A DNA stretch of 64,000 nt, filler included, from Conidiobolus incongruus B7586 (lineage: Eukaryota), in NCBI GenBank assembly GCA_000697335.1. It is 14 parts of 14 records of this genome, joined end to end, with 100 filler letters (N's around TTAATTAATTAA, not from the genome) between each part and the next. Parts side by side here need not be neighbours in the genome. Positions count along the whole stretch, not along the records: positions 10,539 to 24,209 come from JNEM01006437.1; 13 more parts are not named here. One strand, written 5' to 3'. This document shows, in pieces, positions 1 through 42,389 of this stretch (within the stretch, counting starts at the first letter, position 1; every line of letters begins with the position of its first letter). The notes beneath the pieces are model-generated. The model saw only the letters and a program-made list of their open reading frames with translations. It was not told the origin of the DNA and made no database searches. The position numbers and the translations under genes are program-made.

Positions 1-1102
1 AAATATAATAACTTATTAAAATTAACTTTCTAATAAAAAATATATATTATAAAATTAATAAAAAAATTTAATATTAAAATTTCAAAAATCAATTTTAATT
101 ACCAATAAAAAATAAAAACAAATTAAATAATATTTTTTATTTTAATTAAATATTTATCAAAATATTTTGATATTAATTATATAAGCATATTATATATATA
201 TATTCAAGTTTAAATTTAAATTATTTAATAATAATATAAATAAATAGCCTAAAATATAATTAAATCTTAAAAAACTTAAAATAGCTATAATTAAATAAAG
301 CTTACCAAGGAATAACTAATAATTACAGGTTTTATAAAAATTATTCTAAATAAAAAATTATGAATCTTTTTATATAATTTTTATTAGAGCATAAATTAAA
401 ATATTAACTTAAGATAAATTTTTAAATAAATTTATTTAATGAAATATTTATTTATAAGCAAATTTTGGTTATAATATTAGATCAAAAAAACATATATTAT
501 TTTTATTCAATTTTTATAAATATATCAATTAATAATAAGTTTAATAATATATATTAAATAAAACTATTTTTAATTAATATTTTTAATATAATTTAAAGAC
601 AATAATTATTTTTATATAATAATTAGAAACTATAAAGTTAGAGTTATAAAAATTATTTAATTAAAAATATTTTACAAAAGTTATTACATTTAATACATTT
701 ATTAGATCAAAACTTATATAATTATGGTTATTTTAAGCAATTAATAAATTAACCTATACTAAAATTTCTATAAATATATATAATTAGTTTGTGAAATATT
801 CAATCTTAGTCTTTAATAAAAAGAACTATTTTTCAGTGTTAGAAGATTATTAAAAATATAGCATAAAGTCATTAATAATAAGAAAGAGTATCTATTTTAT
901 ATTATATATTTATTCTTGTCCACCATATATTGAAATGTATATTTATTTTCAATCTCAAAAAAGCCTCATTACTTAAAATCCAGAGTAATACTTGAAATAT
1001 ATTGATAAAAGAATATAAAAAAATTTACAGAATTATATAGCATTTTACAATATGAAGAAAAAATTCAATATTGAATTGAAATTGTTAAACAAATAATTCA
1101 AA

Positions 1103-6835: not shown

Positions 6836-9800
6836 TATCTATAGTTTAATTAATTATAAATTATATGATTAATTTATACTTTTATAATTAAATTAATTTT
6901 ATAAATAAATTATAATTATTCAATAAACAAAGTTTTTTTCCTTTCAAAAACCTTATTATTTATTATTTTTTATTTTATTCTTAAGATTAAGAATATATTT
7001 TCTTAATATTATAATATATTAGCATTATTTAATATAAATCTTAATATATCAGTGATTTATTTTAATACAAGGCTTAATTAAATTTTGTTTATTTTTCTAT
7101 ATTATATTAATATTTTCTATATTACACTATTATTATATTAAGTTTTCTTTTATATTATTTTAATTATTTTATTATTATTATAAGCTAGATAATTTTTTTT
7201 CTTTATAATATGCTTATTTCAACTAAATATAAAAGTTATTCCCTTTTTATATAACCAATTATTTTAATTTTACCCTTTAATCAGCTAATAATACAATTCT
7301 CCAAAAAACTCCAAAAACTTTCACTCTATATACTATATATAGAACCCAGAAAACAAAGCTATTTTGTATAAAAGAAGTTTAATCTGGGTTCTCCCAATTA
7401 TTTAGCTTAAACCAATAAACCCCCTATTTTTTTAATTTTTACCTAAAATTCCTTAGATCTGTTTTTTTGCTTATATTATTCTAGACATAGTTTTCCAAAG
7501 ATATATTACTATTATTCTTATATTAATGTTTTTAAACTTATAAGTAAACTATCTTTTAAATATAATATTATATATAAAATTAAACTTTTTATTAATATTA
7601 AATTATACTTAAAACTTACTTATCATTTATTATATAAAAAATATCAAACTTTAAAAAAAGAAATTTAAATATCACTTAAAAATAAATATATTATACTTTT
7701 TTATCTTAATAAAAAGATTTTTAATTCTTTTTGTCTAAAAAGTTGATGATAGTTAAAAATTATATATTAATAGTTATATTTTAAATTTTAAATTTATTAA
7801 AAATAGAATTATTTTATTAAACCAATATAATATTTAAAATGAATTATTTAAATCAATTATACTCAGCAAATTATATATTAAACATAAATATTATAATATT
7901 AAAATTGAAGAAAATTCTATTTTTTTAATTATTTTTAATATTTTTTAAGCTATGATAAATTTTCTATAATATATTTGAACTATATAATATCTTTATAATA
8001 TTTACTTAATTTGTTAATTTTATTATCAATTTTGAATAGGTTTATTATAATATATTTAAATAATATTTTAATTTATTCAATAAATAAAAAGAATATTTTT
8101 AATATTTTAACTATTTTTATCAATTATTCAAAAATATAAATTATTTTTAAAACCTTCAAAATATATTTTTAATTTGATTTATATTATTTTCTATAGTTAT
8201 ATTGTTTTTTCTTAAGAAATTAAAATTAATCTAATTAAACTCAATAGTGTAAAAGCTTTTGTTATATTTATAAACAAAATTACCTAATATTTACATTTAA
8301 ATCATTAAATTATTTTAAAGATTTTATAGATTCTTTTATTAAACTTATTATCTTTTTAATTAATTTCTTAAAAAATAACTTTGTTTCAATAAACACTATT
8401 ATATATTTCTTCTATAATTGCTTTGATTTTCTATATTTCTAATATTTTTATTTTATTTNNNNNNNNNNNNNNNNNNNNNNNNNNNNNNNNNNNNNNNNNN
8501 NNTTAATTAATTAANNNNNNNNNNNNNNNNNNNNNNNNNNNNNNNNNNNNNNNNNNNNTATATCTTTAATATTCTTAAGATTTAAAAAATAATATTTAAT
8601 AAATATCATAATTTATTTATTAAAGGATTTTAAAATTAATTAAAGATTATTAAGAGAATCAAAGCAAAAGATTACTAGTTTTTCTTAATTAAATGAATTT
8701 AGAGATATAATAATATTTATAATATATATTTAAAGAATAAATATAACTTTTAATTGAAATATAATAAACTTATTCTTATATAGATCCTTAATAAAAATTA
8801 ATAACAAATTAAACTTATTTTATAAAAACCTTTAAATTATCAAATAATTTTTATTACTTATTAATTGTAATTAATTTATTTTTTAAATATTTTTATTAAT
8901 TTTTTGGTTAAAAATTTTTATAATTAAAGATATTATAAATTATTTTTTTTATATTTTTACCTATTATAAAATTTTATAAACTATTATATTAAATAAAAAT
9001 ATATAATTTTATTCTTGATTTTAGAAGTTATTATTTTTTCTCTTAAGATTATACTAATTAATTTATTACTAATTATCACCAAATTAATAAACTTATTAAA
9101 AAAATTATTAAAACCTTAAAGCAAATAATTAAAACTTAAATTAATATCAATCAATTAAATTAAAATACCAATATCTATTAACTTTAATATTTATATAATA
9201 TTATTATTAATTAATCAACAAATTTTAACCTTTATTTTATTAATTATAATAAATATCTTAATTTAATCATTGTTTTAAGACTTTAACCTAACCTATCTTT
9301 AAATGTTATGAAATTTCAATCTAATATTATATATATTAATCTATTTGTTAAATTTAATCTAAAAGAAAATTAAAGGATTATAAAATATTAATAATCAAAG
9401 TTATCTAAACAAACTTTTAAATATAAAACTATTGTATTTGTTTATTTAAGATAATTAATCTTTAAACTTATTTATTTAAATTTACTTGAATATAAAATAC
9501 CTATTATTATATTATAATTTTTATAAAATATAATTTATTGATTTATATTTTGAAAATATTAATTTAGAATTATTTTTAATTATGAAGATTAATTTTATCT
9601 TTATTATATATAAAATCAAACTTTATTTTAAAAATTTTAATATTACTATAGAATTGAAGAAATGGGAAATTTTTTAATTTCTGATTTTTCAAACATATTA
9701 TTAGTTTCAAATAAGCAAATATATACAAAACAAATAGGAAAATAGATAGTTTTGAATTATATATATATATATATAATAATTTTTTTGATTAAAAATGAAT

Positions 9801-11442
9801 TTTTTAAAATTAGTTGTTTAATTTAATCATGCTTAAACCAAATAGTGACCATCAAATTCTTTTATTTTAGTATCAGTAAAACTTAACCACAAACCCTCTA
9901 AAATCATTCAAAATTTACAAACAGCTTTTGGTAATAAAGCATTATCTAAATCAACAATTTATTGCTGGGTAAATTACTTTAAGGCTGGGAGAGAAACTAC
10001 CCAAAACTTGCCAAAATCTAGAAGACTAATTTCAACTGTCACTCTTCCAATTATTAATAAAGTAAAAAATTATATTGAAAAGCACCCTTTTATTTCAGCT
10101 AGAGAATTATCAAGACACTTTAATATTAGTCACATAAGTATTTTATATATATTAAAGTTTAAATTAAAATTAATTAATAAAAATGCAAAATGGGTACCTT
10201 ATAATTTAACTAAAGCTCAAAAAAAAGCTAGAGTAGCTATTGCTAAACAAAACTTACTAAGGTATAACTAGAAACCAAGGCTTTTACAGTGAATTATTGC
10301 AATTGATGAATCTTAGATTCCTTTGTACAATCCTTTGCCAAAACATAAATCAAGGTGTTGGATTAAACTAAATCAACCCCCTCCACAAATTCCTTTAAAT
10401 AAGCACTTTATTGATAAGTGAATGTTAATTGTAGCAATNNNNNNNNNNNNNNNNNNNNNNNNNNNNNNNNNNNNNNNNNNNNTTAATTAATTAANNNNNN
10501 NNNNNNNNNNNNNNNNNNNNNNNNNNNNNNNNNNNNNNTGTGATTATAATTGTTTTGGGCAATTAAAAAACCAGCTTGCAGGAAAGAAAATTTCTGCAGG
10601 AAAATTTAATTGGTTTGTGAAATATCAAATTTCAGTCCTTAATAAAAAGAACTGTTTTTTAGGTGTTAGATCTTTGCTAAAAGTATGGCAAAAAGTTATT
10701 AGAAATAAAGGAAATTATTAATTTTATATTATATATTTATTTTTACTTTGTATATATTAAAATGTTTATTTTTTTTCAATCACAAAAAATTCCCATTATT
10801 TAAATTACAAAGTAATATTATTTTAATTAAAACTTTAAAACCAAAATTAATTATTAATAAAAATAAAGAGAAAATAGTATATTTTTTATATAATAAAATT
10901 TAAATCTATTAAAATAAGCTTTATTCTGTTATAAAATAAATAGGCTATTTTATTAAAATAATTATTTGAGAATTATTATAAAATATTAGGAATATTTTAA
11001 CTTATTATATTTATTTATAGAAATCTAGGGACTATATTTCCTTTATTAAACTTATTAAAAAAATATTAAAAAACTATTTTTTTAAATTCTTATATATATT
11101 TTTATAAAATCTAATTATTTATTAATTATATAATTAATTTATACTTTTATAGTTAAATTAAATATATAAATTATTTTAAATAATTTAATAAGCCAGGTTT
11201 TTTTTAAAATATTATTTAATATTTTTTATATTATTCCTAAGGTTAAAACTATAATTTATTAATATAATAATATATTAATATTATTTAATATAAATCTTAA
11301 TATATTAGTGACTTATTTAAGTTCAAAGCTTAATTAAACTTTGTTTTTATTTTTATATTATATTATCATATTCCATGCCACATTATTTGATATCAAGTTA
11401 TCCTTTGTATTATATTGGTATTTTATTATTATATTTATAACA
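6836..11442 (+). mobile_element. Degenerate Ty3/Gypsy (chromovirus-type) LTR retrotransposon containing a nested mariner; spans two assembly gaps
   Basis: LTR-family copies lie at about 6836-7190 and 11064-11442; the latter ends TAACA and follows a purine run. 9060-9260 translates NYHQINKLIKKIIKTLKQ...LN*N...LYN...STNFNLYFINYNKY, a transition-eroded form of the gypsy integrase pattern HQTDGLVERxxKTLKQ...W...YN...TGFSPxxxxYGR. 10920-10990 translates K*IGYFIKIII*ELL*NIR, an eroded chromodomain (KWxGY...TWEP). Confidence 0.72.
9643..10815 (+). mobile_element. Mariner (DD34D) transposon copy A, defective, with an internal assembly gap
   Basis: TA-flanked imperfect TIRs (TTACTATAGAATTGAAGAAATGGGAA / TTCCCATTATTTAAATTACAAAGTAA). 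The transposase starts at ATG 9829, with an HTH region (AFGNKALSKSTIYCWVNYFKAG), WVPYNLT (the mariner WVPHEL motif) and IIAIDES. It carries a frameshift and in-frame stops. Confidence 0.9.
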
Positions 11443-12407
11443 AATTTGCTAAAATTATGGTAAAAGGATAGTTATAGTAAAATAATATATTAATTTTATA
11501 TTTGGTATTAGTTTAAATAATTTTATATTGATTTTTTTATCTAGATTTAATTTTAAAATCTTACCTTTATTAAATCTATATTTTAATATTAAAATTCTAT
11601 CTATATATATTTAATATATTATATATTTTAATTAATTATAATTATTTAAAGATTCATTTTTATTGAATAATGTTAACTGTAAATATAAAATAAATTTCTT
11701 TATTTCTATATATTATATAGTAAAAAGTTAGTTTTGATATATTTTTCAATTAAATAATAATTTTTAAATTAAAATTTTTCATAATATTATAAAATTTATA
11801 TTAAATATATCTATAATTATTTTTTTTAAATTTAAAAAATATCAAAATTTTTAAACTAAAATAATAATATAAATTATTAATATAGTTTCATTCACAAAAT
11901 ATAATATCAAAATAATATAATTTTTCCAATATAAAATATATAATATAAAGAGTTAATAATTATAAGAAATGATAATATAGTGTATAAAAATTTTATGATT
12001 ATAATATAAAGGTTAAATGAAATTTTTACTATAATTTCAAAAATAAAAAATATTATTAAATGTTTCATAAAAAATTCAAAAATTATATATATTTGATATT
12101 TTATTGTATAAATGCTTAAAGTGATATTAATTTGAAATTAATATTTAACAAATTTTTATTCCTTTATGAAAGAAAAGATTTAAAATAATTAATCAAAAAA
12201 GAATATAAATTATAATTCAATAAAAATATAAATTTAATTAGAATATTAATTGAAATGATTAAAAATTAGTCAAGTTCTCGATCAAGAACCACTAAAAAAT
12301 ATCTAACCTTGGTACCACAAAGTATTAGTTATATTATGCTAAGGCTTAGAATTTGCTAATATTGAAATATTTTTATTAATTGAGCGTGATTTTTAATAAA
12401 TAAAAAT

Positions 12408-13040
12408 ATTAAAAATATAATACAATTCATTGCAAGGTTTTTAATAGTTTCAGGTGTCTTTAGTGGTAATTGTTAACCTGAATTTTTAGATCAAGTTGGT
12501 TATAATGCTGATAAATATACTTGTTCTTGTGATTGTCGCGAAAGAAAGTTCTAAGGTGAATACTATGGCGAAATTAAGGACTATAAAGCGGTATATTTCA
12601 ACATGTTGAAACCCACCATATTCGTATTTTTATAGACTGTATTCCATGTATTATTATTAGTCAAAATATTAATAAGGTATTGGTGAATAATTGCGAACTT
12701 AGATATCACGTTCTATTCTTAGGCGCAGTTGCTTTAAACTGTAAATTTTACGACTATTGGTGTACCTGCAATAACCTTAAAGATGAATTCTATCCAGTGC
12801 CTTGTACTCTAACATTTTTTATTATCACAAGATTTTTCTTAATAGTTGTGAAATATAATTTACTTGATTGAGATTTTTATATTCGAAGTATACAATCACA
12901 TATAATCTGTTCAATATTTTTATCTCATCTAACGATTGGTTTATATGTTCAAGGATTCGAGCATTTACTGCAACGAATTGAGAAGGTAAGAGTTATTATG
13001 CTTTTGATTAGTTTATCATTGGTATGTATCATTCTAAATA
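12408..13040 (+). pseudogene. Pseudogene copy of the membrane-protein family at 21746-22468
   Basis: Aligns by eye to the intact copy (e.g. gcaaggtttttaatagtttcaggtgtc, caaggattcgagcatttact). The ATG has become ATT, there is a 5-nt deletion, an in-frame TAA (ttc taa ggt) and further indels. Confidence 0.9.
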
Positions 13041-14959
13041 TTTTTTTATATTCGTTAGGCTATTTTCACTATAATTTGAATTCCTATTTATTGAAACATT
13101 TAATAATAAATTCACCATTTACATTTTTACTGATAATTTCTTATATCATTATCAATACCTATTAGTTTCATTAAAATATTTCACACAATTATAGGTTTAC
13201 TATAAACTTTTACAAAGATTAATTTCTTTTTAATTGTGCTCAATTTGAATTAAATACTGAAAAGCTTTATCACCATGTAATAAATTAAATATAAAAATTT
13301 TTAATTTTTTACAATCAAATAAAGAATAAAAATGGTTTTAGGATGATTAGTCAGTGCAAAATGGTATAATAAAATGTAATAGAATAACTATATTACTTGC
13401 TATAATAATAATATTAAATTTGTGAAATTAATAGATAATTTAAAAATATTTAATAGTAATGACATTCATAATTTGATGAAATTTTTAAGAGCGTTTTTAT
13501 GATTAAATAAAAAGAATCAATGTTATTAAATTTATTAGTCTATTTCCAAATAGCAGAAATAAAAATATTCAAAGCTAAATTACAATATATTAATTGATAT
13601 AAAAATAGAATTTGATACAAAGTTTAATAGTAGAATATTTTAATTGGTCAATTTGTAATGAATGAACTTATAAAAACATTTGAAAATATATTAAATAGTT
13701 TAAAATCATTAAATTAGTAAGAATGAATTAATTGTTCCTTAATTTTATAATTAAAATAAAAATAAATCGTATTTAATATTTATTTAATAATCAGTATTAT
13801 TTGCTTATTTATGATATAATTTATAATCTTATACATTATTATGTAATTTGGAATATTGGTTATTATTAATGTGACCTCACAAAGAGGATAATTAAAATTT
13901 GTTACCAAGTTTGTTTTTAAAAGTTATGAAAATTAATTAGAAAAAAAGTTAATACTATAATTTTGACAAATTCGGAAATTATTAACTAATATTTATTTAG
14001 AAACAAACAATAGATTCTATAATTTTGAGGAATATATACTAATAAAATTGAATTAGCTTCTCAGAATTAATTAAATTATTAATTATATTGCTAAGAGGTA
14101 TTTTTGATGTATTTATGATATTATCAAGTTGTTATTTATGTAATAAAGCAATCTATACAAGGGTTATCAGCAATGATACGAATATTCAAATATCTTGATA
14201 AAAATTGATTGATATATTTTTCAATTCATAAAGCTTATTTTTAACCTAATAAATATGGCGGTTTGATATAAAATATTAATACATAAACTGACTCTACATC
14301 CAAATATCATTCCCTTTATACATTATCTTTTTAATGAGTTGATCAAAAATCAAATAGCATGGAAGAATCATGATTTAAAATTATAATGAATAAAAAAAAT
14401 CCAAATATGGCTAAAATCATGCTTTTTAATAATTAACAATAGCAATAGAAAGACATAGGTAACTATATATATAACTCATATATTTACTATTACTTAAATT
14501 ATCGATCTTATAAAAACTTGAAATTACACTATTAATTTAAATACATTGCCATTAATTGTGGTGTTAAATGATATAAACAAGTCCACAATCATATATTGTA
14601 AAAGGTCAAATCTTAGTTCATGTATTTACTCTTGGCACTTTGATAATTGATGATAATCAAAAATTATTTGAAAATATAAATATAATTATAATTATTAATT
14701 ATTAAAAACAAGTTAAATTTGCATGACACCTTAAGAATATTTTTTGATTCTTGATTAATAGTATATAAAATAAAATACCTATTAAAATTATTTTTCAAAA
14801 ATTTCCATTTCCTAATATACTAATTTATCATTGGTCAGATGTTGCTAAACTTTGAAAAAAAATTTATTAAATTTGAAATTATTTCTTGTTTTTAAACTAT
14901 TTCATAAAGTTATATAGATTCAATTTAATAATTTTATCACGACTCTTTCAAAAAAAATT

Positions 14960-17406: not shown

Positions 17407-19432
17407 ATGAAAAATATAATAAAATTTATTGCAAGATTTTTAATATTACTTTGCATTTTTAATAATGGGAATTTTTTGCAATTGAAAATAAATAAATATT
17501 TTAATATATAATATATAAAAATAAATATATAATATAAATTTAATAGTTTTTTTTATTATTAATAACTTTTTGCTATACTTTTAGCAAAGATCTAACACCT
17601 AAAAAATAGTTTTTTTTATTAAAGACTGAAATTTAATGTTTTACAAATCAATTAAATTTTCTTGCAAAAATTTTCTTTCTTACAAGCTGGTTTTTTAATT
17701 ACCTAAAGCAATTATAATTATATAGGTTATAATTTAAAGAATATACTAGATGTGGTAGTTTTTTCTAGTTATTTTTAATTAGAAAGTTTTTTACAGTTTT
17801 AGATTTATGAATTTTACAATTATCATGTAAAATAATAAGTTTTCTCAAATTATATTGAGAACACTAATTAGAAATACTTTTATTTAAAAAAAATATAAAG
17901 TTTATTATTAATTGATTTTCCTTTAAAAACTAAATAAAAGTAGCATATACTATTATAATCTATTATAATAATTAACATTTGTTTATTAACAAAATATTTA
18001 TTTAAAGGGATTTGTAAAAGAAGTTAATTTAACTTAATCTAGCATTTTGATTTGTGTTTTAGTAAAGGATTATATAAAAGGATTTAAGATTCATTAATTA
18101 TAATTATTTACTGTAAAAGTTTAAGCTTCTTATAATATTTTAATAGGTTTTATTTAACAATAGCTACTCTAGCTTTTTTTTAAACTTTAGTTAAATTATA
18201 AGGTATTTATTTTATATTTTTATTTATTAATTTGAGTTTAAACTTTAATATATATAAAATACTTGTAAAACTTATATTAAAGTACTTAGATAATTCTTTA
18301 ACTAAAATAAAAAGGTACTTTTCAATATATTTTTTTACTCTATTAACAATTAAAAAAATAATAGTTAAAGTTAGTTTTTTAAATTTTAACAGGTTTTAGA
18401 TAATTTTTCTTTTAATTTTAAAGTAATTTACCTAGTGATAAATTGTTAATTTAGATAATACTTTATTATTAAAAGCTACTTGTAAATTTTAATTAGTTTT
18501 AAAAGGTTTATGGTTAAGTTTTACTAATATTAAAATAAAAAACTTTTGATGATCACTATTTGGTTTAAGCATAATTAAATTAAACAACCAATTTTAAAAA
18601 GTTAATTTTTTAATCAAAAAAATTATTATATATATATATATATATAATGTCCTATTAACTTTATATATATTTATTTATTTCAAACTAATAATATGTTTGA
18701 AAAATTAGAAATTAAAAAATTTCCCATTTCTTCAAATTCAAGGTAATAGTTTCAGGTGTCTTTATTTTAGTGGTAATTGTTAATACTGTATTTTTGGATC
18801 AAGTTGATTATAGTGTTGATAAATATACTTGTTTTTGTGATTGCTGGGATAGAAAATTCAAAAGTGAATACTATGGCAAAACTAAGGACTATAAAGCAGT
18901 ATATTTCAATATGTCGAAACCAACCATATTCGTATTTTTATGGACTGTATTCCATATATTATTGCTAGATAAAGCCATTAATAAGATATTGGTCAATATC
19001 CATAACCTTAGATATCACGTTCTACTCTTAAGTCCAGTCGCGTTATTTGGTAACTTTTATAACTGGTGGTCTACATGGAACTATCTTAATGATGAATTCT
19101 ATCCAATGCTTCATACTCAAATGTTCTTTAATATTACAGGATTATTCCCAATTGCTGTGATATATAATTTACTACTCAAGGGTTCTTATGTTGACAGCCT
19201 ATATACACACATTAGCATCTCAATCTCACTTTCACATATAGTTTTTGCTTTGTATGATCAAGGATTCGAGCATTTACTCCATCAAATTGGCAAAAAGGAG
19301 CGAGATCTGATGTTTTTGATCAGTGATACAGTATCACTATTTTTAGTTCTTTATTATTCTAGACGTATTTCTTTACACCACTTGGCTTTTTTAACTGTTT
19401 GTTGGACATATATTTATTGGTTTATTCAATAA
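17407..19432 (+). pseudogene. Membrane-protein paralog interrupted at codon 13 by a mariner insertion
   Basis: ATG AAA AAT ATA ATA AAA TTT ATT GCA AGA TTT TTA ATA at 17407-17445 matches the start of the 21746 gene. The frame resumes after the duplicated TA (18747-18748) with GTT TCA GGT GTC and stays open to TAA at 19432. Confidence 0.92.
17446..18746 (-). mobile_element. Full-length mariner copy B (1301 bp), heavily C->T/G->A mutated
   Basis: TIRs TTACTTTGCATTTTTAATAATGGGAA ... TTCCCATTTCTTCAAATTCAAGGTAA. The TA target duplication (17444-45 / 18747-48) is confirmed by the empty site in the 21746 paralog. Colinear with copies A and D. Confidence 0.95.
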
Positions 19433-21745: not shown

Positions 21746-22468
21746 ATGAAAAATATAATAGAATTCATTGCAAGATTTTTAATAGTTTCAGGTGTCTTTA
21801 TTTTAGTAGTAATTGTTAATACTGCATTTTTGGATAAAGTTGATTATAGTGTTGATAAATATACTTGTTCTTGTGATTGCTGGGATAGAAAATTCAAAGG
21901 TGAATACTATGGCAAAACTAAGGACTATAAAGCAGTATATTTCAATATGTCGAAACCAACCATATTCGTATTTTTATGGACTGTATTCCATGTATTATTA
22001 CTAGATAAAGCCATTAATAAGGTATTGGTCAATATCCGTAATCTTAGATATCACGTTCTACTCTTAAGCGCGGTTGCTTTACTCGGTAACTTTTACAACT
22101 GGTGGTGTACTTGGAACTATCTTAATGATGAATTCTATCCAATGCTTCATACTCAAATGTTCTTTAATATTACAGGATTATTCCCAATTGCTGTGATATA
22201 TAATTTACTACTCAAGGGTTCTTATGTTGACAGCCTATATACACACATTAGCATCTCAATCTCACTTTCACATATAGTTTTTGCTTTGTATGATCAAGGA
22301 TTCGAGCATTTACTCCATCAAATTGGCAAAAAGGAGCGAGATCTGATGTTTTTGATCAGTGATACAGTATCACTATTTTTAGTTCTTTATTATTCTAGAC
22401 GTATTTCTTTACACCACTTGGCTTTTTTAACTGTATGTTGGACATATATTTATTGGTTTATTCAATAA
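21746..22468 (+). CDS. Intronless 240-aa multi-pass membrane protein of unknown function
   Basis: Intact ORF with about 6-7 hydrophobic segments, a loop motif [12 protein letters not shown] and the segment [12 protein letters not shown]. Two local paralogs support it as a real gene. Confidence 0.88.
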
Positions 22469-22807: not shown

Positions 22808-23870
22808 GCAGGTCTTCTAGCAAGTAGACTTGAAATAAAGATCACGTAGATTCAACAAAATGGGCCAAGGGCGACTAACGAGATACTTTAAAGGGTTTTA
22901 TAAAAATATTAAGGTGTAGGGCTTGGCCCTGATCAAGATGATCCTTGAGTGAATAGTTGCCTAGTGACTATTTTATAGTGTGGTTAGTTCTTTGCCAATG
23001 TGCTCAAACTCCAATTACTGTTATAATCTGGATTTTTCCATTGTGCAAGCATTGTACCTGGTATTTGTGAGTGGATTATATTCGTAATCATGACGGGCGG
23101 TGATAGTTGAATGGCGAGCGGCCCTCCCGATCAATGTCAATATTTATGTTATTATATAATATTGAAACACTATGTTGATTTAATTCTCAATATTAGAATT
23201 TTTCTTATATCAAATTGAAAATAACAAATTATGGCGTTTTAATGATATTAAAATTGATATTTAATAATATGTTTTGTATAATTCACCGAATAATGGAAGT
23301 TGATTTTATAAATAGATAGCATATTTTTTATCCATTTACATTAACTCAGAATGGTTTTATATAAATATCAAACATATTTTCTAATAGATGGATAAAATGG
23401 TATTTCAATAAGCGATATTATTTTATTTTCAATTGAATGAATCATTTTTCTAAATCTTCAATTCAAAAATTATTACTCCAAATTTCATATAATGAGAATT
23501 TTTTGAGATTTAAAATAAATAAAGGTTTTAATATATAATGCAAGGCTTCTGGAAAGTAGTCTTGTGATAAAGATCACGTGATTCCAATGATACGATCCAA
23601 AGACAACTAACAAGATACTTTAGAGGAGTTTTATTAAAATATCAAGCTATAAGGCTTGGCCTTGATCAAAGTGATCATCTAGAATATATCTGTCCAGTGA
23701 CTATTTTATAGTGAGGCTGATCCTTGGCCAATGTGTTGAAGCTCTAACTTCTGTTATAGTCTGAAATTTTCCATAATGCAAGGATTGTTAATGATATTTG
23801 TAAATGGATTATATTCAGAATCTTGACAAACAATTAAAATTGAAAAATGAGTAGACCTCCTGATTTGTAA
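22808..23870 (-). repeat. Diverged tandem duplication (about 330 bp: 22808-23140 and 23539-23870) of a coding-like relic
   Basis: Shared blocks include ataaagatcacgt, ggcttggcc.tgatcaa, agtgactattttatagtg and tggattatattc. The minus strand gives related peptides DYEYNPLTN / DSEYNPFTN and HYKIVT, both with stops and frameshifts. Confidence 0.75.
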
Positions 23871-24209
23871 TAATAAGTTGCAAAAATAAAAATATATTAT
23901 AAAATCAATATCTTTATTTATTATTAATAACACTTTCCTATACTTTTGGAAAGTTTTTAACACCAAAAAAGCTGTTTATTTATAAAAGGCTAAAATTTAA
24001 TATTTTACAAACTAATTAAATTTTTTATATAAATTTTCTTTCTTGTAAATTAGTTTTTTAATTACTCAAAGTAATTTTAATTATATATGTTATAATCTAT
24101 TATATGAATTAAAATTAATAGATTTTATTGATAATTTTTAATTAAAAATTATTTTATAGTTTATAAAATTTATAGTTTTTTATAAATTATTAAATAGTTT
24201 TATAAAAAT
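23870..24209 (-). mobile_element. Degenerate 3' fragment of a diverged mariner
   Basis: Matches the transposase C-terminal region of copies B, C and D (ttattaataacactttcctatacttttggaaag...tattttacaaactaattaaa). Confidence 0.7.
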
Positions 24210-25225
24210 NNNNNNNNNNNNNNNNNNNNNNNNNNNNNNNNNNNNNNNNNNNNTTAATTAATTAANNNNNNNNNNNNNNNNNNNNNNNNNNNNNNNNNNN
24301 NNNNNNNNNCTTGGGCCATTCTTTATTGCTTCGTTTCCTTCATATACCTATCTATTTGGATCCTTGAGCTCCGTTTTCTCGATTATATGAATACTTTCAC
24401 ATCAAACATATATATCTTTCTCTTTTGAATTTGAGACTTGTGCATTGGTCTGTTTTGAGTTGAGTAGATATTTAATTTGGAGAGGATTTGAGTGACAGGT
24501 GAATTTTGTCAGCCAGATTTGAGTGCCTTCTCCGGTCGTCAGCAGTCATTGCACCCAGTATTTGCTCATTTATTTTAAAAATAGTAATTATTTAAAATAT
24601 ATTTTTAATATTTTTCACTTTTTTATACTAACAAATTTATATTATTTTAGATTTCCCCTCCCCCCCTTTTTTGCATTGTTCAATCTCTTTCGCTGATTTG
24701 CAATCATTCTTCTATATACTTTTGTCCTCACTCTAAAATATGGATCTTCTCTGATGTTGATTTTCACTCTGGCTTAGTGATTTTGTATATTATCATTAAT
24801 TAATAAATAAATATAATATAAATATATACATTCTAATTTTTATTTAGATTTTAACTTATTTTCTAATGTTAAATTTATATCATGTTTTTATCTATTAACT
24901 CAATTTTTTTATTAATATTTATTTTTTAATATATTTCAAGTTATTTGTGAAAAATTAAGCTAATCAGTTATTTTACTAATTTATTATTAAGGATTTGCTT
25001 ATTTAATATTATTTGGGGAATCCTCAGAATTTGATGTTAATATAATGAGAGATTTCATATTTCTCTAAAGATATATATTGAATTTGCTTATCATTTAATA
25101 AAGAAGATATATATTTTGTTACTAATCCTAATAGTTTTGTCTGATCAATTTATTTTGAAATTAATAAAATCTAACTTTATTTTAACTATAAAATATAAAG
25201 AATCAGGGTAACTCAAAGATTAATA

Positions 25226-26543
25226 TTAGTGCAGAAATTAAGTAATGGCATAATTTTAAAATTAAAATTAAACAAACAAATTAATAAATAATATATAAAA
25301 ATTAATGAATAATATAAAATTAATAGCCTCCTTTATTATTAATAACTCTTTTCTATACCTTTGGTAAACTTCTAATACCTAAAAAACAGTTCTTTTTATT
25401 AAGGACTGAAATTTGATATTTTACAAACCAATTTAATTTGTTTATAGGAATTTTTTTTCCTGTAAGCTGTTTTTTTTAATTGTCTAAAACAATTATAATC
25501 ATATAAGTTATAATCAAGTGAATATACTAGATGTGGTAACTTCCTCTAATTTTTTTTATATAAAAAATCTTTTACAGCTTTAACTTTATATATTTTACAA
25601 TTATTATGTAAAATAATAAATGTCTTTAATTTATATTGAAAACACCATTTAGAAATTGTTTTATTTAAAAAAATAATATATAACTTACTATTAATTGATT
25701 TTCTTTGAGATATTAAATAAAAATACCATATACCATTATAATCTATTACAACAATTAACATTCACTTATATTTAAAGTACTTATTCATTAGAATTTATAA
25801 AAGGGATTGATTTAGCTTAACCTAACATTTTGTTTTATTTTTAGGTAAAGGATTATATAAAAGAATCTAAAATTCATCAATTATAAGTATTTGCTATAAA
25901 AACCTTTGTTTTTAGCTATATCTTAATAAGTTTAATTTAGTTATAGCTACTTTAGTTTTTTTAGGCTTCTGTTAAACTATAAGGTATCTATTTTGCATTT
26001 TTATTAATTAATCTAAGTTTAAACTTAAGTGAATATAACATGCTTATATAATTAACATTAAATTGCTTTGATAATTCTCTAGCAATAATAAGAAGATATT
26101 TTTTAATATATTTTTTTACTCTATTAATAAGTGAAAGAATGATAGAAAAAATTAATCTTTTAGATTTTGGTAAATTTTAAATAATGTTCCTTCTTGTTTT
26201 AAAATCATAAATCTAGTGATATATAGTAGTTTTAGATAAAGCACAATCTTTATAAACTGTTTACAAGTTTTAAATGATTTTAGAGGGTTTATGATTAAGA
26301 TTTAAAGATACAAAAATAAAAGCCTTTTGATAATCACAATTTAGTTTAAATATAATTAAATTTAAGTATAAATTTTAAAATCAAATATTTTAATAAAAAA
26401 AATAATAAAAATTGATAATATATATATAGTTTCAAAATATTTATTTTCCTATATATTTTATATATATATAATCTTTCAAAATATATAATATGTTTGAAAG
26501 ATCAGAAATTAAAAAATTTGCCATTTTTTAATTTCTATACTAA
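25226..26543 (-). mobile_element. Full-length mariner copy C, second subfamily, hypermutated
   Basis: TA-flanked ends TTAGTGCAGAAATTAAGTAATGGCA ... TTGCCATTTTTTAATTTCTATACTAA. The ORF remnant at 25546-25761 (MLIVVIDYNGIWYFYL...IILHNNCKIYK) has the catalytic HDN changed to HNN. Confidence 0.9.
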
Positions 26544-27916
26544 TAATATACATAATCCCCTCTAGCTAGGACTCAACTTAAAAAATTAATAATATTCATT
26601 ATATTAATGTTTTTATGTTAATAATTATTAGAGTAATAATAAAGTTTTATAATTAAATTGAGATAAATATTGAATTCATTCCATATTACTTAAAAAAAAG
26701 ATATAATAATAGATAGTAATTTTTGATATAAGATTGAATCAAAATTTTTTTGGAAATTATTGAACTATTTTAAAAAGTTTGTAGTTTAGATTTACTATAA
26801 TTTAATAAGATACTAACCACTATTATAAACCAGAAAATGATTATATTTCTATTAAAAAGTAACTCTAAATAAAATTATATTATTTAAAATCATTGATTAC
26901 GGTATTTATTTTGTATTTAATATCCTATTTAATAATAATTAAATATTTAATTAATAAAGAATAAAAATTTCATTATTTAAATTTATAAATAATTAATATA
27001 AATTTTTTATTTTAAAATATTTTATTATAATTTTTCAAAATTTTATTCAATATTATAGAGAGAAATCTTTAAACATATTAAGTAGATCATAATAGTTTAT
27101 AAATAATATATTTTAAAATCAAGAAATTAATTTTTTTAATCAAATTTAATCACCTATTTGTAATATAATTTTATTTTGGATATAGTAAACAAAATAGATA
27201 CTTTATTAATTTAATATAAAATCTAAATTATATTCTGACTATCATAAATAATAAATATAATATTTTGTAGGTAACATTTTATATGATAATATATCTATAA
27301 TCAAAATAAATTATTTATAATTTTAATTAAAATCAAATAACTATAATTTTGCATTCAATATTATTTCATAGTATATAATGGTTCAAAAAAAATAATTTAT
27401 TTAATATTTCTATATTTTATATAAAATAATAAAGTTAAAGTAAATATAACATGTTTAATATATCAATAATTTTCTTGTTTTCGAATAAAAATTTTCATAC
27501 TAATGGTGTTTAGTTAATTTAACTATATAGGTTTTTATATTTTAATTTTAAAAATAAAATTTTAAAATATAAGGTTGAAATATTATAATTCTCTTTCCTT
27601 GAATTTAATTTTTTGACTTATCAAAACAACTCTAATCATAAGAGCATATATCTGGTAAATATAATGGATATGGTAACAAAGATTAATTTCTTAATAAATA
27701 AATCAGAAATATATATATTTAATGATTTTAATATAAAGAGTTTAAATTAATTGAATTTTTTATATTAATTTATATTATTTGTTTTTAAATATTTAATTTT
27801 ATTTTATCATTATATATTTTCTAAGTAATAATTAATAGAATAATAGAACTTTATTATTAATACTTATGATTATTATTTATATTTTTGAAATAATTGTTAT
27901 TTTGATATTTATGATA

Positions 27917-28754
27917 TTACTTTGTAATTTAAATAATGGGAATTTTTTGCGATTGAAAAAAAATAAACATTTTAATATATACAAAGTAAAAATAAATATA
28001 TAATATAAAATTAATAATTTCCTTTATTTCTAATAACTTTTTGCCATACTTTTGGCAAAGATCTAACACCTAAAAAACAGTTCTTTTTATTAAGGACTGA
28101 AATTTGATGTTTCACAAACCAATTAAATTTTCCTGCAGAAATTTTCTTTCCTGCAAGCTGGTTTTTTAATTGCCCAAAACAATTATAATCACATGGGTTA
28201 TAATCTGGGGAATATACTGGATGTGGTAGTTCTTTCCAGTTATTTTTAATTAGAAAGTTTTTTACAACTTTAGATTTATGTATTTTGCAATTATCATGCA
28301 AAATAATAGGTCTTCTCAAATTATATTGAGAATACCAATTAGAAATAGTTTTATTTAAAAAAGAAATATAAAGTTTANNNNNNNNNNNNNNNNNNNNNNN
28401 NNNNNNNNNNNNNNNNNNNNNTTAATTAATTAANNNNNNNNNNNNNNNNNNNNNNNNNNNNNNNNNNNNNNNNNNNNAATTTTGAATGATTTTAGAGGGT
28501 TTGTGGTTAAGTTTTACTGATACTAAAATAAAAGACTTTTGATGGTCACTATTTGGTTTAAGCATGATTAAATTAAACAACTAATTTTAAAAAATTCATT
28601 TTTTAATCAAAAAAATTATTATATATATATATATATATAATTCAAAACTATTTATTTTCCTATTTGTTTTGTATATATTTGCTTATTTGAAACTAATAAT
28701 ATGTTTGAAAAATTGGAAATTAAAAAATTTCCCATTTCTTCAATTCCATGGTAA
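27917..28754 (-). mobile_element. Mariner copy D, least mutated, with an internal assembly gap
   Basis: TA-flanked TIRs. ORF 28011-28319 has ILHDN...HPVYSPDYNPCDY with 34 residues between the second and third Asp (DD34D). The N-terminus reads MLKPNSDHQKSFILV at about 28565. Confidence 0.95.
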
Positions 28755-28807
28755 TATTAGCTTAAATTTTTCAACTTGAGTATTTTTTTTCATGATAATA
28801 AATAATA

Positions 28808-30109
28808 TACTAACCTACAAAAATAAGTTATAAAATCAAAAACACTTATATTTTTACTAATAACTTGATTAATATTTAATAAAATAAACCTAAATTAAAT
28901 AATTAAAATCTATTATATTTATTAATAATATATATCATTAAATGATGATATTTAGCTATTAATTGGTTAAAATATAAACCTTTAAATTTTACCTAGGGTG
29001 AGTTATAAATTTGTGGGTTTTTGGTGATAAAAAAAATTAAAACTTAATGTATCTACCTTAAGCTTTTCTAACTTCTTTAAGTTTGTGGGGTATAGAATCA
29101 ACTAACTTTTTATACTAAGAAAATTCAATCTTGTTTTATGCTTCTTAAACATATTTTTAAAGTTGATCTAAATTTTTTACTAGAAAGACAACTTTAATAG
29201 CTTTTTTTAACTAATCCTAAAAATATTTAATTAGATTAAAGTTAAAAGATTGAAAAAGCTACTTTATAACTATTATCTTGTTATTTTTAAGCTATTTGTT
29301 AATAGAAGTTATAATATAACAAAAGGTATTATTTTACTAGAAAATAACATTAGATTTATTTAACCTATATTATTCAATGGTTTTTTTAATTTATTGTTTA
29401 GAATACTTTAATATATTTTAATATTAATTCCCCTATTAATTTTACAAAGATATTTTATATTTAAAGATAATATATATCCCTAAACAATAATTAACCTACC
29501 ATTGTACTTTTAAGTAAAATTAATATAATAATCATAAAGTAGTTTTATATCTTTTCTAAAGCATCTAGCTTTTTTATTAAATTTATTAAAATATATTTTT
29601 GTTTCATTAGATTAAATAACTTTACTCTAATTAGTTTTAGTTTAATATTAGTAGCAATATTTAAACTCCCACCTAACTTTATAATAAGATTTCTTTAGTT
29701 GGGGGTGTTTTTTCTTAAAGTGTAAATGGTATCTATATTAACATAAAACACATATAATAATATTAGTGTTAACTAATATTCTTATATAGTTTTATAATTC
29801 TTATTGTATTTTTACAATAATACTATATTTACTTATATTAACTAATCTACAAATATACTTCTTATTATATTCATCTATAATTTTAACATATTTAGGTTTA
29901 GGTTTAAATATTTCTTTATTGCTATTCTTAACAACTTTAACTATAGTAAACTAACTAACACTAGTAATTCTAACAATATTATAAGTTGATTTATTTTCTT
30001 TATAAAGTTAATTAATATACAAGTAGATTTTTTTAGAGAGGGATTTAGGTATAATAATATTAATAAAAAAATTTAGTATATTTATAAAATATTATATAAA
30101 ATAATAACA
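28808..30109 (-). mobile_element. Hypermutated Tc1-like transposon (3' terminus plus transposase, runs into a gap)
   Basis: The minus strand reads VIF**NNTFCY...K*LKNNKIIVIK*LFQSFNFNLIKYF*D*LKK, an eroded form of FQQDNAPCH...WPxQSPDLNPIExxW. The terminus is TA|TACTAACCTACAAA. Confidence 0.8.
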
Positions 30110-42190: not shown

Positions 42191-42389
42191 GTGAAACATT
42201 AAATTTCAGTCCTTAATAAAAAGAATTGTTTTTTAGGTGTTAGAAGTTTGCCAAAAGTATAGCAAAAAGTTATTAATAATAAAAGAAACTATTAAATTTA
42301 TATTATATATTTATTTTTATATATCATATATTCAAATGTTTATTTATTTTTAATCGCAAAAAATTCCCATTATTAAAAATGCAGAGTAA
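42191..42389 (+). mobile_element. Mariner 3' terminal fragment at a contig start
   Basis: Transposase C-terminus (LNKKNCFLGVRSLPKV*QKVI) followed by the TIR aaattcccattattaaaaatgcagagtaa|TA. Confidence 0.88.

What the first reader, a model, noticed from the sequence alone, without database searches (positions are those of the whole stretch)
17446..18746. RIP-like, transposon-focused C->T/G->A hypermutation on both strands
Seen: aligning copy B (17549-17780) with copy D (28021-28250) by eye gives about 26 C->T or G->A changes in B over about 230 bp, against about 3 other differences (e.g. tctgggg->tttaaag, tgccc->tacct, tcac->ttat). CpA/TpG is the most frequent context, but CpT and CpC are also hit. 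CpG is nearly absent from the mariner copies, with likely CGA->TGA changes in copy A. The Tc1, gypsy and LTR copies are eroded the same way, and the load differs strongly between copies. Known: RIP, dependent on RID/Masc1-type methyltransferases, is characterised mainly in Dikarya. Inference: if this organism is an early-diverging fungus, this is an uncharacterised repeat-mutating defence system with relaxed context.
Basis: partly seen in the sequence, partly recalled or inferred. Interest (0 to 1): 0.85.

Follow-up and report, generated by a model that had tools for sequence, protein, structure and literature searches.

The report
CpG-free, C-to-T-eroded mariner transposons
A dead mariner transposon in a very AT-rich, probably early-diverging fungus differs from its best-preserved sister copies almost only by C-to-T changes, and the transposon copies around it lack CpG while neighbouring genes keep it; this likely reflects slow, transposon-restricted cytosine decay rather than the classical RIP defence.

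Summary
Over 1063 aligned bases against copy E the counts are 120, 29 and 30. B (17446-18746) is a mariner with TA target duplication. It sits inside the coding sequence of a paralogous gene.

The signature marks repeats. In-window repeats hold 3 CpG against 75.6 expected. RIP indices are positive in 22 of 29 repeat windows but in only 7 of 43 equally AT-rich unique windows. An ACS tree places the organism outside Dikarya.

Classical RIP fits poorly:
- A 711-bp, 96%-identical gene duplicate 3 kb away keeps its CpGs.
- Near-identical mariner copies abound.
- Load rises with age.
- Context preference is weak (CpA 0.58, CpT 0.45, CpC 0.38).
- Many B-versus-E differences are shared genome-wide.

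Introns and fourfold sites are also very AT-rich, so a genome-wide AT bias supplies much of the erosion.

My best reading is AT-biased neutral decay plus a transposon-restricted, probably methylation-linked, cytosine-deamination component. The whole genome is not held here, so this stays unproven.

The parts
17446..18746 (-). Copy B: dead 1301-bp mariner. The transposase frame is on the minus strand. GC 15.5%, no CpG, composite RIP index +0.46.
   Evidence: for alignment and spectra. for indices; 6 premature stops in the 140 codons homologous to E's open frame, all CAA>TAA or TGG>TAG/TAA. The sister copies carry the Mos1 HTH and DDE_3 domains.
17444..17445 (.). Left TA target-site duplication of B.
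   Evidence: P1 reads ...TTTTTAA-TA-[element]-TA-GTTTCAGG, while P2 and P0 read ...TTTTTAATAGTTTCAGG.
18747..18748 (.). Right TA target-site duplication of B.
17446..17485 (+). Left terminal inverted repeat of B.
   Evidence: 28 of 40 bases match the reverse complement of 18707-18746.
18707..18746 (-). Right terminal inverted repeat of B.
18749..19432 (+). P1: paralogue of a conserved membrane-protein gene of early-diverging fungi, split by B. Its first 13 codons lie at 17409-17445. It keeps 8 CpGs.
   Evidence: The P1 lineage has 15 changes, 9 of them C:G>T:A, over 220 G/C sites. Ten of the P1/P2 differences change the amino acid (translations).
21746..22468 (+). P2: intact paralogue with the empty insertion site (TA at 21783-21784). 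It holds 10 CpGs.
   Evidence: Homologues: 75% identity to an unnamed JGI protein, 47-51% to Umbelopsis, 40% to Paraphysoderma and Catenaria.
12397..13165 (+). P0: older pseudogene copy of the same family with an empty site. GC 27.5%, 14 CpGs.
   Evidence: The start codon is lost and the frame is interrupted.
9638..10832 (+). Copy E: the least-decayed mariner (GC 22.8%, no CpG). It spans a scaffold gap at 10439-10538. A 140-codon open transposase frame lies at 9849-10268.
27889..28759 (-). Copy D: 98.4% identical to E over 553 bp (GC 20.5%, 1 CpG). It spans a scaffold gap at 28378-28477. A DDE_3 frame lies at 28014-28376.
25221..26545 (-). Copy C: full-length mariner of a second subfamily. GC 17.6%, no CpG.
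58469..59704 (+). Copy F: second subfamily. GC 13.8%, no CpG.
93..1009 (+). Copy A: the oldest long mariner copy. GC 12.3%, no CpG.
42191..42403 (+). Copy G: a 213-bp end fragment and the closest in-window relative of B (91.5% identical).
   Evidence: 10 of G's 36 C/G sites are T/A in B, and 2 of B's 27 are T/A in G.
23865..24209 (-). Copy H: a mariner fragment at a contig end. GC 13.1%, no CpG.
29057..30107 (.). Unclassified repeat, partner of 60365-61389. No CpG in either copy. 158 transitions against 60 transversions.
   Evidence: CpA 33/45, CpT 61/105, CpC 11/27.
60365..61389 (.). Partner copy of 29057-30107, with lower GC (12%).
8730..9643 (.). Unclassified repeat, partner of 63010-63929. 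No CpG. 104 transitions against 73 transversions.
63010..63929 (.). Partner copy of 8730-9643.

Best explanation
The element at 17446-18746 is a dead mariner copy whose differences from its least-decayed sister copies are almost all C:G-to-T:A transitions; this erosion is likely the slow, cumulative result of a strongly AT-biased mutation regime plus a transposon-restricted cytosine-deamination component, probably through cytosine methylation, and not of bursts of classical RIP.

Shown:
- the spectrum;
- the absence of CpG from repeats while genes and unique AT-rich DNA keep CpG;
- a weak CpA > CpT > CpC preference that is absent from a non-transposon gene family;
- the sparing of a duplicated gene;
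- the abundance of young copies;
- the AT-richness of introns and fourfold sites.

Inferred:
- Transposons, but not gene duplicates, are marked (for example by 5-methylcytosine in heterochromatin), and marked cytosines deaminate faster. CpG would be lost first and completely, already in the active lineages, and other contexts more slowly.
- Copy B inherited part of its T/A states from an already eroded, trans-mobilised subfamily and added more after insertion.
For: 1. Spectrum. B vs E shows 120 C:G>T:A-type differences against 4 transversions at E's 251 C/G sites. Genome-wide, contigs of four runs of one sample laid on E (9638-10438) vary at 45 C>T and 41 G>A places, against 15 A>G, 15 T>C, 13 A<->T and 6 other places (run X1).

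2. Restriction to repeats.
- CpG is 3 observed against 75.6 expected in repeats. It is 17/42 in unique tiles below 15% GC and 38/63.6 in the P gene family.
- In 500-bp windows the composite RIP index is above 0 in 22 of 29 repeat windows and 7 of 43 unique windows below 16% GC (Fisher P = 5e-7). CpG is 0/82.3 against 71/102.1.
- All ten CpG-free blocks of 900 bp or more hold in-window repeat copies.

3. Context. Pooled over four independent repeat pairs, CpA is 147/254, CpT 163/364 and CpC 44/117 (CpA vs CpT P = 0.0014). The P family shows no CpA preference: 28/160 against 27/136.

4. Not duplication-triggered. P1/P2 (711 bp, 95.9% identical, 3 kb apart) keep 8 and 10 CpGs.

5. Slow and cumulative.
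- The index rises from the least-decayed copies (D -0.56, G -0.67, E -0.27) to intermediate ones (B +0.46, F +0.39, H +0.36).
- Transition:transversion ratios of the younger pairs are 3-8, never extreme.
- Of 7810 contig pieces laid in run X1, 643 are at least 99% and 1704 are 95-99% like E.

6. B against its own flank. 10 of 36 C/G sites are lost in B relative to G, and 120 of 251 relative to E. The P1 pseudogene it interrupts lost 9 of 220 (P = 3e-5 and 9e-30).

7. Background bias. Intron cores are 17.8% GC. Fourfold sites are 20% (ACS) and 17% (P2).

8. Literature.
- 5mC marks repeats in the early-diverging fungus Phycomyces, and DIM-2 promotes C>T in methylated repeats (passages of PMC13297926).
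- Species-specific CpA/CpT/CpG signatures at C>T sites in fungal transposons track Dnmt1 subfamilies (abstract of PMC4352252).
Against: - No methyltransferase gene, deaminase gene or methylation data could be examined, because no genome is held.
- The least-decayed copies already lack CpG, so CpG loss was not observed happening in any copy. It could be an old trait of these lineages.
- CpG deamination alone would raise CpA/TpG. The observed CpA/TpG deficit needs a second, non-CpG component whose targeting I only infer.
- The rate excess over the non-transposon P family is modest: 8-12.5 against about 5 at matched A<->T divergence, with partly overlapping intervals. It is absent for the young P1-P2 pair at 19.8 (interval 6-52), which rests on only 2 A<->T events.
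- Unique AT-rich DNA may keep its CpGs by selection and not for lack of the process.
- P1/P2 show signs of gene conversion (the last roughly 330 bp are identical). This weakens the comparison of B with its flank.
- D and E lie at contig ends across scaffold gaps and may be collapsed consensus sequences. That would exaggerate the contrast with B.
- The repeat class in the window is dominated by one mariner family.
Confidence: 0.5

Rival explanations
1. A genuine RIP-like genome defence. A dedicated enzyme, triggered by repetitiveness, deaminates or methylates cytosines of repeated DNA on both strands with a relaxed CpA > CpT > CpC preference, in a fungus outside Dikarya.
For: - Near-exclusive C:G>T:A changes fall on both strands.
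- Both classical RIP indices pass their usual thresholds in repeats only: TpA/ApT is 1.09 and (CpA+TpG)/(ApC+GpT) is 0.91, against 0.95 and 1.39 in unique AT-rich tiles. In windows this is 22/29 against 7/43.
- CpA is preferred.
- Nearly every codon that one C>T step can turn into a stop is a stop in the older copies: 6/7, 6/7, 5/7 and 3/3 in B, C, F and A.
- The organism lies outside Dikarya.
- RIP-index signals were reported, with caveats, in Entomophthorales, for example 24.2% of the Zoophthora radicans genome (passages of PMC11105155).
Against: - The linked P1/P2 duplicate is spared.
- Of 7810 contig pieces, 2347 are at least 95% like E, and D/E are 98.4% identical.
- No young pair shows a transition burst.
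- Same-strand runs are no commoner than a site-aware null predicts in 6 of 7 comparisons. The exception is E>C at P = 0.007.
- The context preference is only 1.3-1.5-fold.
- A kingdom-wide screen found repeat-enriched RIP-like signatures almost only in ascomycetes (abstract and passages of PMC12543289).
Confidence: 0.2
2. There is no transposon targeting at all. A genome-wide mutation bias dominated by C>T transitions erodes any neutral DNA. Repeats look special only because they are the main neutral, once GC-richer DNA, while the G/C and CpG left in unique AT-rich DNA are held by selection.
For: - Intron cores are 17.8% GC. Fourfold sites are 17-20% in ACS and P2.
- The oldest copies (A 12.3% GC, K 9.8%) reach or fall below the GC of the most AT-rich unique tiles (10.8%), and their index drifts back to negative values (A -0.10, K -0.35).
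- The P1 pseudogene lineage is also C>T-dominated, with 9 of 15 changes.
- The young P1-P2 pair has the same transition/A<->T ratio as young transposon pairs.
- Load tracks A<->T divergence.
Against: - A uniform process with CpG and CpA preference should leave unique AT-rich DNA depleted too. Yet its CpG observed/expected is 0.40-0.70 against 0.00-0.04 in repeats, and its CpA/TpG is not depleted.
- P0, a pseudogene 21-23% diverged, keeps 27.5% GC and 14 CpGs.
- There is no CpA preference in the P family.
- B lost far more C/G than the pseudogene it interrupts.
Confidence: 0.2
3. B's load relative to D/E is mostly not damage to this copy. B belongs to a large, older, already stop-laden non-autonomous subfamily that was amplified in trans, so the B-D comparison measures subfamily divergence.
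For: - B carries the common alternative letter at 34 of the 40 best-supported variable places listed for E. Thirteen of these are not C>T type, and they are held by 38-80% of copy depth.
- B, C and F share stops at codons 20, 39, 51, 114 and 123.
- Loss of E's C/G sites is correlated between B and C (odds ratio 2.0) and between B and F (odds ratio 2.7).
- With C, F, A and H as outgroups, simple parsimony assigns only 22 of 133 sites to the B lineage: 51 go to D/E, 56 are mixed and 4 fit neither.
Against: - Direction is still C>T. There are 46 sites where E alone holds C/G while B, C and F all hold T/A, against 5 of the opposite kind.
- B has also lost 10 of 36 C/G sites relative to its closest relative G.
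- Shared C>T states can be recurrent hits at favoured CpA sites.
- This reading explains the pairwise count but not why repeats as a class lack CpG.
Confidence: 0.1

Closest known systems
Repeat-induced point mutation (RIP) of Neurospora crassa and other Pezizomycotina (RID-dependent, premeiotic)
   Same: C:G>T:A transitions on both strands of repeated DNA. CpA is the preferred non-CpG context. TpA/ApT is raised and (CpA+TpG)/(ApC+GpT) lowered in repeats only. Many stop codons are created.
   Different: - The organism is outside Dikarya.
- A linked 96%-identical gene duplicate is spared.
- Near-identical copies are abundant.
- The context preference is only 1.3-1.5-fold.
- No burst-like load appears.
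- RID could not be sought.

The Neurospora length and identity thresholds, the premeiotic timing and the strength of the CpA preference are recalled. The requirement for RID is also stated in passages of PMC11105155.
RIP-like hypermutation at TpCpG in transposons of Pucciniomycotina (Horns et al. 2012, PMC3318451; abstract read)
   Same: Transposon-focused C>T hypermutation outside the Pezizomycotina, with CpG involved.
   Different: Here CpG is already gone from every copy. The changes that can be scored are all non-CpG (CpA, CpT, CpC), with no clear 5' T preference: in E>B, ApC 0.38, CpC 0.59, GpC 0.46, TpC 0.52.
C>T bias with species-specific CpA/CpT/CpG signatures in fungal transposons, linked to Dnmt1 subfamilies (Amselem et al. 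2015, PMC4352252; abstract read), and 5mC-deamination decay of methylated repeats (PMC13297926; passages read)
   Same: CpG loss confined to transposons, genes spared, and slow cumulative C>T decay that coexists with large transposon loads.
   Different: Methylation and methyltransferases are untested here. The CpA/TpG deficit needs more than CpG methylation. Those surveys covered Ascomycota and Basidiomycota.
RIP-index signals in Entomophthorales (eLife 2024, PMC11105155; passages read)
   Same: Composite RIP index positive in part of the genome of Zoopagomycota fungi. The window's ACS groups with Conidiobolus coronatus.
   Different: That work used window indices only. Here the direction, context and repeat restriction are shown on aligned copies with an empty-site control. 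The species identity is unknown.
Tc1/mariner DNA transposons (Mos1-type)
   Same: TA target duplication, terminal inverted repeats, about 1.3 kb, Mos1-type HTH and DDE_3 domains in the sister copies.
   Different: Copy B is dead, with 6 stops in 140 codons. The family is very abundant: 7810-9869 contig pieces per run match 801 bp of it.

Membership tests
Classical RIP (Neurospora type) | C:G>T:A transitions dominate the differences among repeat copies, on both strands. | tested here: met
   B vs E: 120 such differences against 4 transversions at C/G sites, split 56 C>T and 64 G>A.
Classical RIP (Neurospora type) | Dinucleotide bias: CpA preferred; TpA/ApT high and (CpA+TpG)/(ApC+GpT) low in repeats but not in unique DNA. 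| tested here: met
   Repeats give 1.09 and 0.91; unique tiles below 15% GC give 0.95 and 1.39. CpA 0.58, CpT 0.45, CpC 0.38. The preference is weak.
Classical RIP (Neurospora type) | Acts on any sufficiently long and similar duplication, including linked gene duplicates. | tested here: not met
   P1/P2 are 711 bp, 95.9% identical and 3 kb apart. They keep 8 and 10 CpGs and differ by only 19 transitions. Caveat: possible gene conversion.
Classical RIP (Neurospora type) | Near-identical repeats do not persist; load appears in bursts. | tested here: not met
   D/E are 98.4% identical over 553 bp. In run X1, 643 of 7810 contig pieces are at least 99% like E and 1704 are 95-99%. Transition:transversion ratios of younger pairs are 3-8.
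Classical RIP (Neurospora type) | RID/Masc1-type methyltransferase present; premeiotic timing. | not testable with these tools
   No whole genome is held, and no crosses are available.
Classical RIP (Neurospora type) | Host within Dikarya, the established range. | tested here: not met
   In the ACS tree the window groups with Conidiobolus coronatus (100/97), outside the Dikarya clade (89/89), on a long branch of 1.01. The named homologues of the P family are all in early-diverging fungi.
5mC-deamination decay of methylated transposons | CpG depletion confined to transposons, with genes and unique DNA much less depleted. | tested here: met
   CpG is 3/75.6 in repeats, 38/63.6 in the P family and 180/336.4 in unique tiles of 25% GC or more. 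In 500-bp windows it is 0/82.3 against 71/102.1.
5mC-deamination decay of methylated transposons | Excess of the products TpG/CpA where CpG was lost. | tested here: inconclusive
   The least-decayed copies D, E and G have (CpA+TpG)/(ApC+GpT) of 1.45, 1.28 and 1.54. Unique DNA has 1.3-1.4 as well.
5mC-deamination decay of methylated transposons | 5-methylcytosine on the elements; DNMT1, DNMT5 or Dim-2-type genes in the genome. | not testable with these tools
   No genome and no methylation data.
Tc1/mariner transposon (copy B) | TA target-site duplication with an empty site in a paralogue. | tested here: met
Tc1/mariner transposon (copy B) | Terminal inverted repeats. | tested here: met
   28 of 40 terminal bases match.
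Tc1/mariner transposon (copy B) | Transposase with HTH and DDE/D domains. | tested here: met
   The domains are in the sister copies: HTH_48 at E = 1.6e-5 in E, and DDE_3 at E = 2.2e-7 in D. B's own frame is broken by 6 stops in 140 codons.

The most novel reading that the evidence does not exclude
A fungus outside Dikarya, near the Entomophthorales or other zygomycete lineages, runs an uncharacterised genome defence. It recognises transposons but not gene duplicates, and converts their cytosines to thymines on both strands in the order CpG >> CpA > CpT > CpC. This would be a homology-independent, RID-independent counterpart of RIP, such as a heterochromatin- or small-RNA-guided methyltransferase or deaminase.
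Probability: 0.2. Interest if true: 0.8.

Novelty: new member of a known kind. Interest (0 to 1): 0.4.

Why it matters
RIP and RIP-like mutation are established only in Dikarya. A 2025 kingdom-wide screen found repeat-enriched signatures almost only in ascomycetes (PMC12543289). An entomophthoralean study reported index-based hints, with caveats (PMC11105155).

This window gives alignment-level evidence in a probable non-Dikarya fungus. The evidence has direction and context, an empty-site control and a spared gene duplicate. It shows that transposons carry a cytosine-loss signature which equally AT-rich unique DNA lacks. It also shows that the RIP indices alone would overstate the case.

If the transposon-restricted component proves enzymatic, it would extend mutational genome defence to early-diverging fungi. 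It would also separate transposon targeting from duplication sensing. If it is only methylation-linked decay on an AT-biased background, it is an ordinary though clean example, and a caution for RIP-index scans in very AT-rich genomes.

Tried and rejected
- Whole genome: none is held. DNMT, RID and deaminase searches and genome-wide controls were therefore impossible.
Whether B's T/A states are private therefore remains open.
- Sequencing runs: no RNA holder is listed.
- Same-strand clustering of mutations, which would suggest a processive enzyme. A simple shuffle suggested clustering in E>B (P = 0.003). A null that respects the order of C and G sites removed it (P = 0.07). Only 1 of 7 comparisons stayed below 0.01.
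- Outgroup parsimony to polarise the B versus D/E differences: unreliable because of saturation and parallel hits, giving 22 B-derived, 51 D/E-derived, 56 mixed and 4 neither.
- Classifying the other repeats: 54 ORFs of 55 aa or more gave no transposon domain in Pfam.
- Relatives elsewhere: two scans of metagenome contigs, one with the mariner N-terminus and one with P2, found none.
- tRNA and Rfam scans: nothing.
- Earlier notes on this genome, by place and by sequence: none.
- B versus its P1 flank as a clean age-matched control: weakened by apparent gene conversion between P1 and P2 and by B's inherited subfamily differences.
- Supplements of the cited papers were not opened.
Full report
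**Setting.** The window is not one natural molecule. It consists of 14 contigs of 1.2-13.7 kb joined by 13 identical linkers (44 N, TTAATTAATTAA, 44 N). At two junctions (10438/10539 and 28377/28478) the two sides are consecutive parts of one mariner copy in the same orientation. Those two linkers therefore stand for scaffold gaps inside repeats. Overall GC is 19.6%. No whole genome is held.

**Organism.**
- A fungal Zn(2)-Cys(6) domain lies at 35191-35925 on the minus strand.
- The acetyl-CoA synthetase gene at about 2570-5094 is split by short introns, seven of which (50-55 bp) are well defined. Its best named hit is Conidiobolus coronatus at 70% over one exon, followed by Mucorales, Mortierella and Basidiobolus.
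- A tree of a partial, 485-residue ACS model with 21 named sequences joins it to C. coronatus (100/97), outside a Dikarya clade (89/89). Its branch is long (1.01), so the exact place is unsure.
- A second gene, P2, has named homologues only in Umbelopsis (47-51%) and in Paraphysoderma and Catenaria (40%), plus an unnamed JGI protein at 75%.
- I read this as a non-Dikarya fungus, on limited evidence.

**The element.**
- Positions 17446-18746 are one mariner copy (B). It is flanked by a TA duplication (17444-17445 and 18747-18748), and 28 of its 40 terminal bases form inverted repeats.
- It is inserted after codon 13 of a gene, P1. The paralogue P2 (21746-22468) and the older pseudogene P0 (12397-13165) have the empty site.
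- The sister copies carry the Mos1-type HTH (in E) and DDE_3 (in D) domains.
- Other copies are C, D, E, F, A, G and H, plus end fragments.

**The observation.**
- Over the whole element, B vs E gives 120, 29 and 30 of 1063 aligned bases. B vs D gives 52, 9 and 20 of 724.
- At E's 251 C/G sites aligned to B there are 120 transitions and 4 transversions.
- Both strands are hit alike, with 56 C>T and 64 G>A.
- Direction is clear without relying on parsimony. There are 46 sites where E alone holds C/G and B, C and F all hold T/A, against 5 of the opposite kind.
- Four runs of one sample, laid on 801 bp of E at 80% likeness or more, gave 7810-9869 contig pieces each. In run X1 the places varying in at least 5% of depth were 45 C>T, 41 G>A, 15 A>G, 15 T>C, 13 A<->T and 6 others.
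- The spectrum is therefore a property of a very large family, not of one pair.

**Context.**
- E has no CpG at all, so every scorable change is non-CpG.
- For E>B the counts are CpA 60/103, CpT 42/99 and CpC 18/49.
- Pooled over four independent pairs from three families, they are CpA 147/254, CpT 163/364 and CpC 44/117. CpA vs CpT gives P = 0.0014.
- The 5' neighbour matters little.
The preference is only 1.3-1.5-fold.

**Is it focused on transposons? The composition says yes.**
- Repeats found within the window (12.4 kb, P family excluded) hold 3 CpG against 75.6 expected. GpC is not depleted (1.65).
- Their TpA/ApT is 1.09 and their (CpA+TpG)/(ApC+GpT) is 0.91.
- Unique 100-bp tiles below 15% GC give CpG 17/42 and indices of 0.95 and 1.39. 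The P gene family gives CpG 38/63.6 and indices of 0.91 and 1.24.
- In 500-bp windows the composite index is positive in 22 of 29 repeat windows and in 7 of 43 unique windows below 16% GC (Mann-Whitney P = 3e-9). CpG is 0/82.3 against 71/102.1.
- Several 'unique' positives (60251-61250) are the partner of a repeat that my filter missed.
- All ten CpG-free blocks of 900 bp or more hold in-window repeat copies.
- Six of the eight short contigs have no CpG.

**The rate comparison is much weaker.**
- I used A<->T changes per A/T site as a clock. Transitions per G/C site, corrected for saturation, are 7.6-26 times that clock in 14 transposon pairs.
- The same ratio is 5.1 and 5.5 in P0-P2 and P0-P1, and 5.1 in another GC-rich repeat pair (22804/23536).
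- It is 19.8 (interval 6-52) in the young P1-P2 pair, which rests on only 2 A<->T events.
- At matched clock values (about 0.09) the transposon excess is roughly 1.5-2.4-fold, and the intervals partly overlap.
- The P family shows no CpA preference (28/160 against 27/136). In the P1 lineage, however, CpG is lost faster than the rest: 4/20 against 9/200, P = 0.02.

**Background bias.** Seven well-defined ACS introns are 20% GC, or 17.8% without their splice ends. Fourfold sites are 20% GC in ACS and 17% in P2, but 35-47% in three other frames. A strong genome-wide AT bias exists and must supply much of the erosion of any neutral copy.

**Arguments against classical RIP.**
- P1 and P2 are 711 bp long, 95.9% identical and 3 kb apart. 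They keep 8 and 10 CpGs and differ by 19 transitions and 10 transversions.
- P0 is 21-23% diverged and keeps 27.5% GC and 14 CpGs.
- D and E differ at 9 of 553 sites.
- In run X1, 2347 of 7810 contig pieces are at least 95% like E.
- No young pair shows transitions without transversions. The ratios are 8:1, 9:2, 12:3, 61:20, 149:30 and 120:37.
- The index rises from the least-decayed copies (D, G, E: -0.56, -0.67, -0.27) to intermediate ones (B, F, H: +0.46, +0.39, +0.36). This pattern suits gradual decay.
- Same-strand runs do not exceed a site-aware null in 6 of 7 comparisons.

**How much of B's load is its own?**
- B carries the common alternative letter at 34 of the 40 best-supported variable places that the tool listed for E. 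A further 114 places were not shown.
- Thirteen of those 34 are not of C>T type, and they are held by 38-80% of the depth.
- B therefore belongs to a large subfamily, and part of the B-E difference is inherited.
- B, C and F share stops at codons 20, 39, 51, 114 and 123 of E's frame, all at CpA sites. Shared descent and recurrent hits cannot be told apart here.
- Against its closest in-window relative, G, B has still lost 10 of 36 C/G sites, and G has lost 2 of 27.
- The P1 pseudogene that B interrupts lost 9 of 220; the difference has P = 3e-5.
- This control is weakened because the last roughly 330 bp of P1 and P2 are identical, which suggests gene conversion.
- D and E sit at contig ends and may be collapsed consensus sequences.

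**Reading.** The best-supported account has two layers.
1. A genome-wide, transition-dominated AT bias erodes all neutral DNA.
2. A component restricted to transposons removed every CpG, already in the active lineages, and preferentially removes CpA.

The second layer spares gene duplicates. Its target therefore looks like 'transposon' (chromatin or RNA-guided marking) and not like 'duplication'.

I infer cytosine methylation followed by deamination as the most likely chemistry. Repeat-restricted 5mC is reported in the early-diverging fungus Phycomyces, and methylation-linked C>T decay of repeats is reported in other fungi (passages of PMC13297926; abstract of PMC4352252). This is untested here.

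A true RIP-like defence and a purely uniform bias both remain possible, at about 0.2 each.

**Comparison with the literature.**
- A kingdom-wide screen found repeat-enriched RIP-like signatures almost only in ascomycetes (abstract and passages of PMC12543289).
- Index-based hints exist for Entomophthorales, with explicit caveats (passages of PMC11105155).
- TpCpG hypermutation is described in Pucciniomycotina (abstract of PMC3318451).
- My three full-text searches turned up no alignment-level description of such a signature in Zoopagomycota or Mucoromycota. This covers only the held library.
- Earlier unchecked notes of this scan report similar CpG-plus-CpA signatures in a Dimargaritales fungus and two Endogonales fungi. 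They are leads, not support.

**Verdict.** This is a new member of a known kind: transposon-restricted C>T decay with a species-specific context. It is of moderate interest until the genome and methylation data are examined.

Noticed in passing
window 6736-6835 and 12 further places: Thirteen identical linkers (44 N, TTAATTAATTAA, 44 N) join 14 contigs, so the window is a pseudomolecule. At 10438/10539 and 28377/28478 the two sides continue one mariner copy. At least those two junctions are real scaffold gaps. Adjacency across the other linkers is unverified.
   Followed up: partly
window 12397-13165, 17409-17445 + 18749-19432, 21746-22468: A three-copy family (P0, P1, P2) of a roughly 240-aa protein with hydrophobic stretches (transmembrane prediction not run) and no Pfam domain. 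Named homologues occur only in early-diverging fungi: Umbelopsis, Paraphysoderma and Catenaria. P1 is split by the mariner. The last roughly 330 bp of P1 and P2 are identical while the first roughly 400 bp differ at 29 sites, which suggests gene conversion.
   Followed up: partly
P0121 and P0122: The closest relatives of P2 (75% and 74% identical, unnamed JGI proteins) are listed with the same longest-contig length (39,404 bp), so they may lie on one contig. If so, a tandem arrangement of this gene may be shared with a relative.
   Followed up: no
window 9849-10268 and the homologous parts of B, C, F and A: Almost every codon of the mariner N-terminus that one C>T step can turn into a stop (five CAA, two TGG) is a stop in the older copies: 6/7, 6/7, 5/7 and 3/3. 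Genome-wide, 52-85% of copy depth carries the four of these changes that the tool listed (9909, 9967, 10192, 10218).
   Followed up: partly
window 9638-10438: This mariner family is extremely abundant. 7810-9869 contig pieces per run, out of about 0.48-1.5 million records, match 801 bp of it at 80% or more. About 30% of the pieces are at least 95% like copy E, which implies a recent large expansion.
   Followed up: partly
window 2570-5094: The acetyl-CoA synthetase gene is interrupted by many very short introns. Seven are well defined, at 50-55 bp, GT...AG, some with CTAAC-like branch motifs.
   Followed up: partly
window 18625-18650 and the homologous places in copies C, D, E, I and J: A (TA)n microsatellite of variable length lies inside the 3' part of the mariner.
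   Followed up: no
window 22804-23094 and 23536-23827: A 290-bp direct repeat, 77% identical and 34-37% GC, that keeps CpGs (4 and 2). Its transition/A<->T ratio (5.1) is like that of the P family, unlike the transposons. It may be an internal repeat of a gene.
   Followed up: no
P0041: An ACS-annotated protein model of Lobulomyces angularis also carries a topoisomerase domain (PF01131). I did not find it: the ORFs at 1159-1633 gave no Pfam hit.
   Followed up: no
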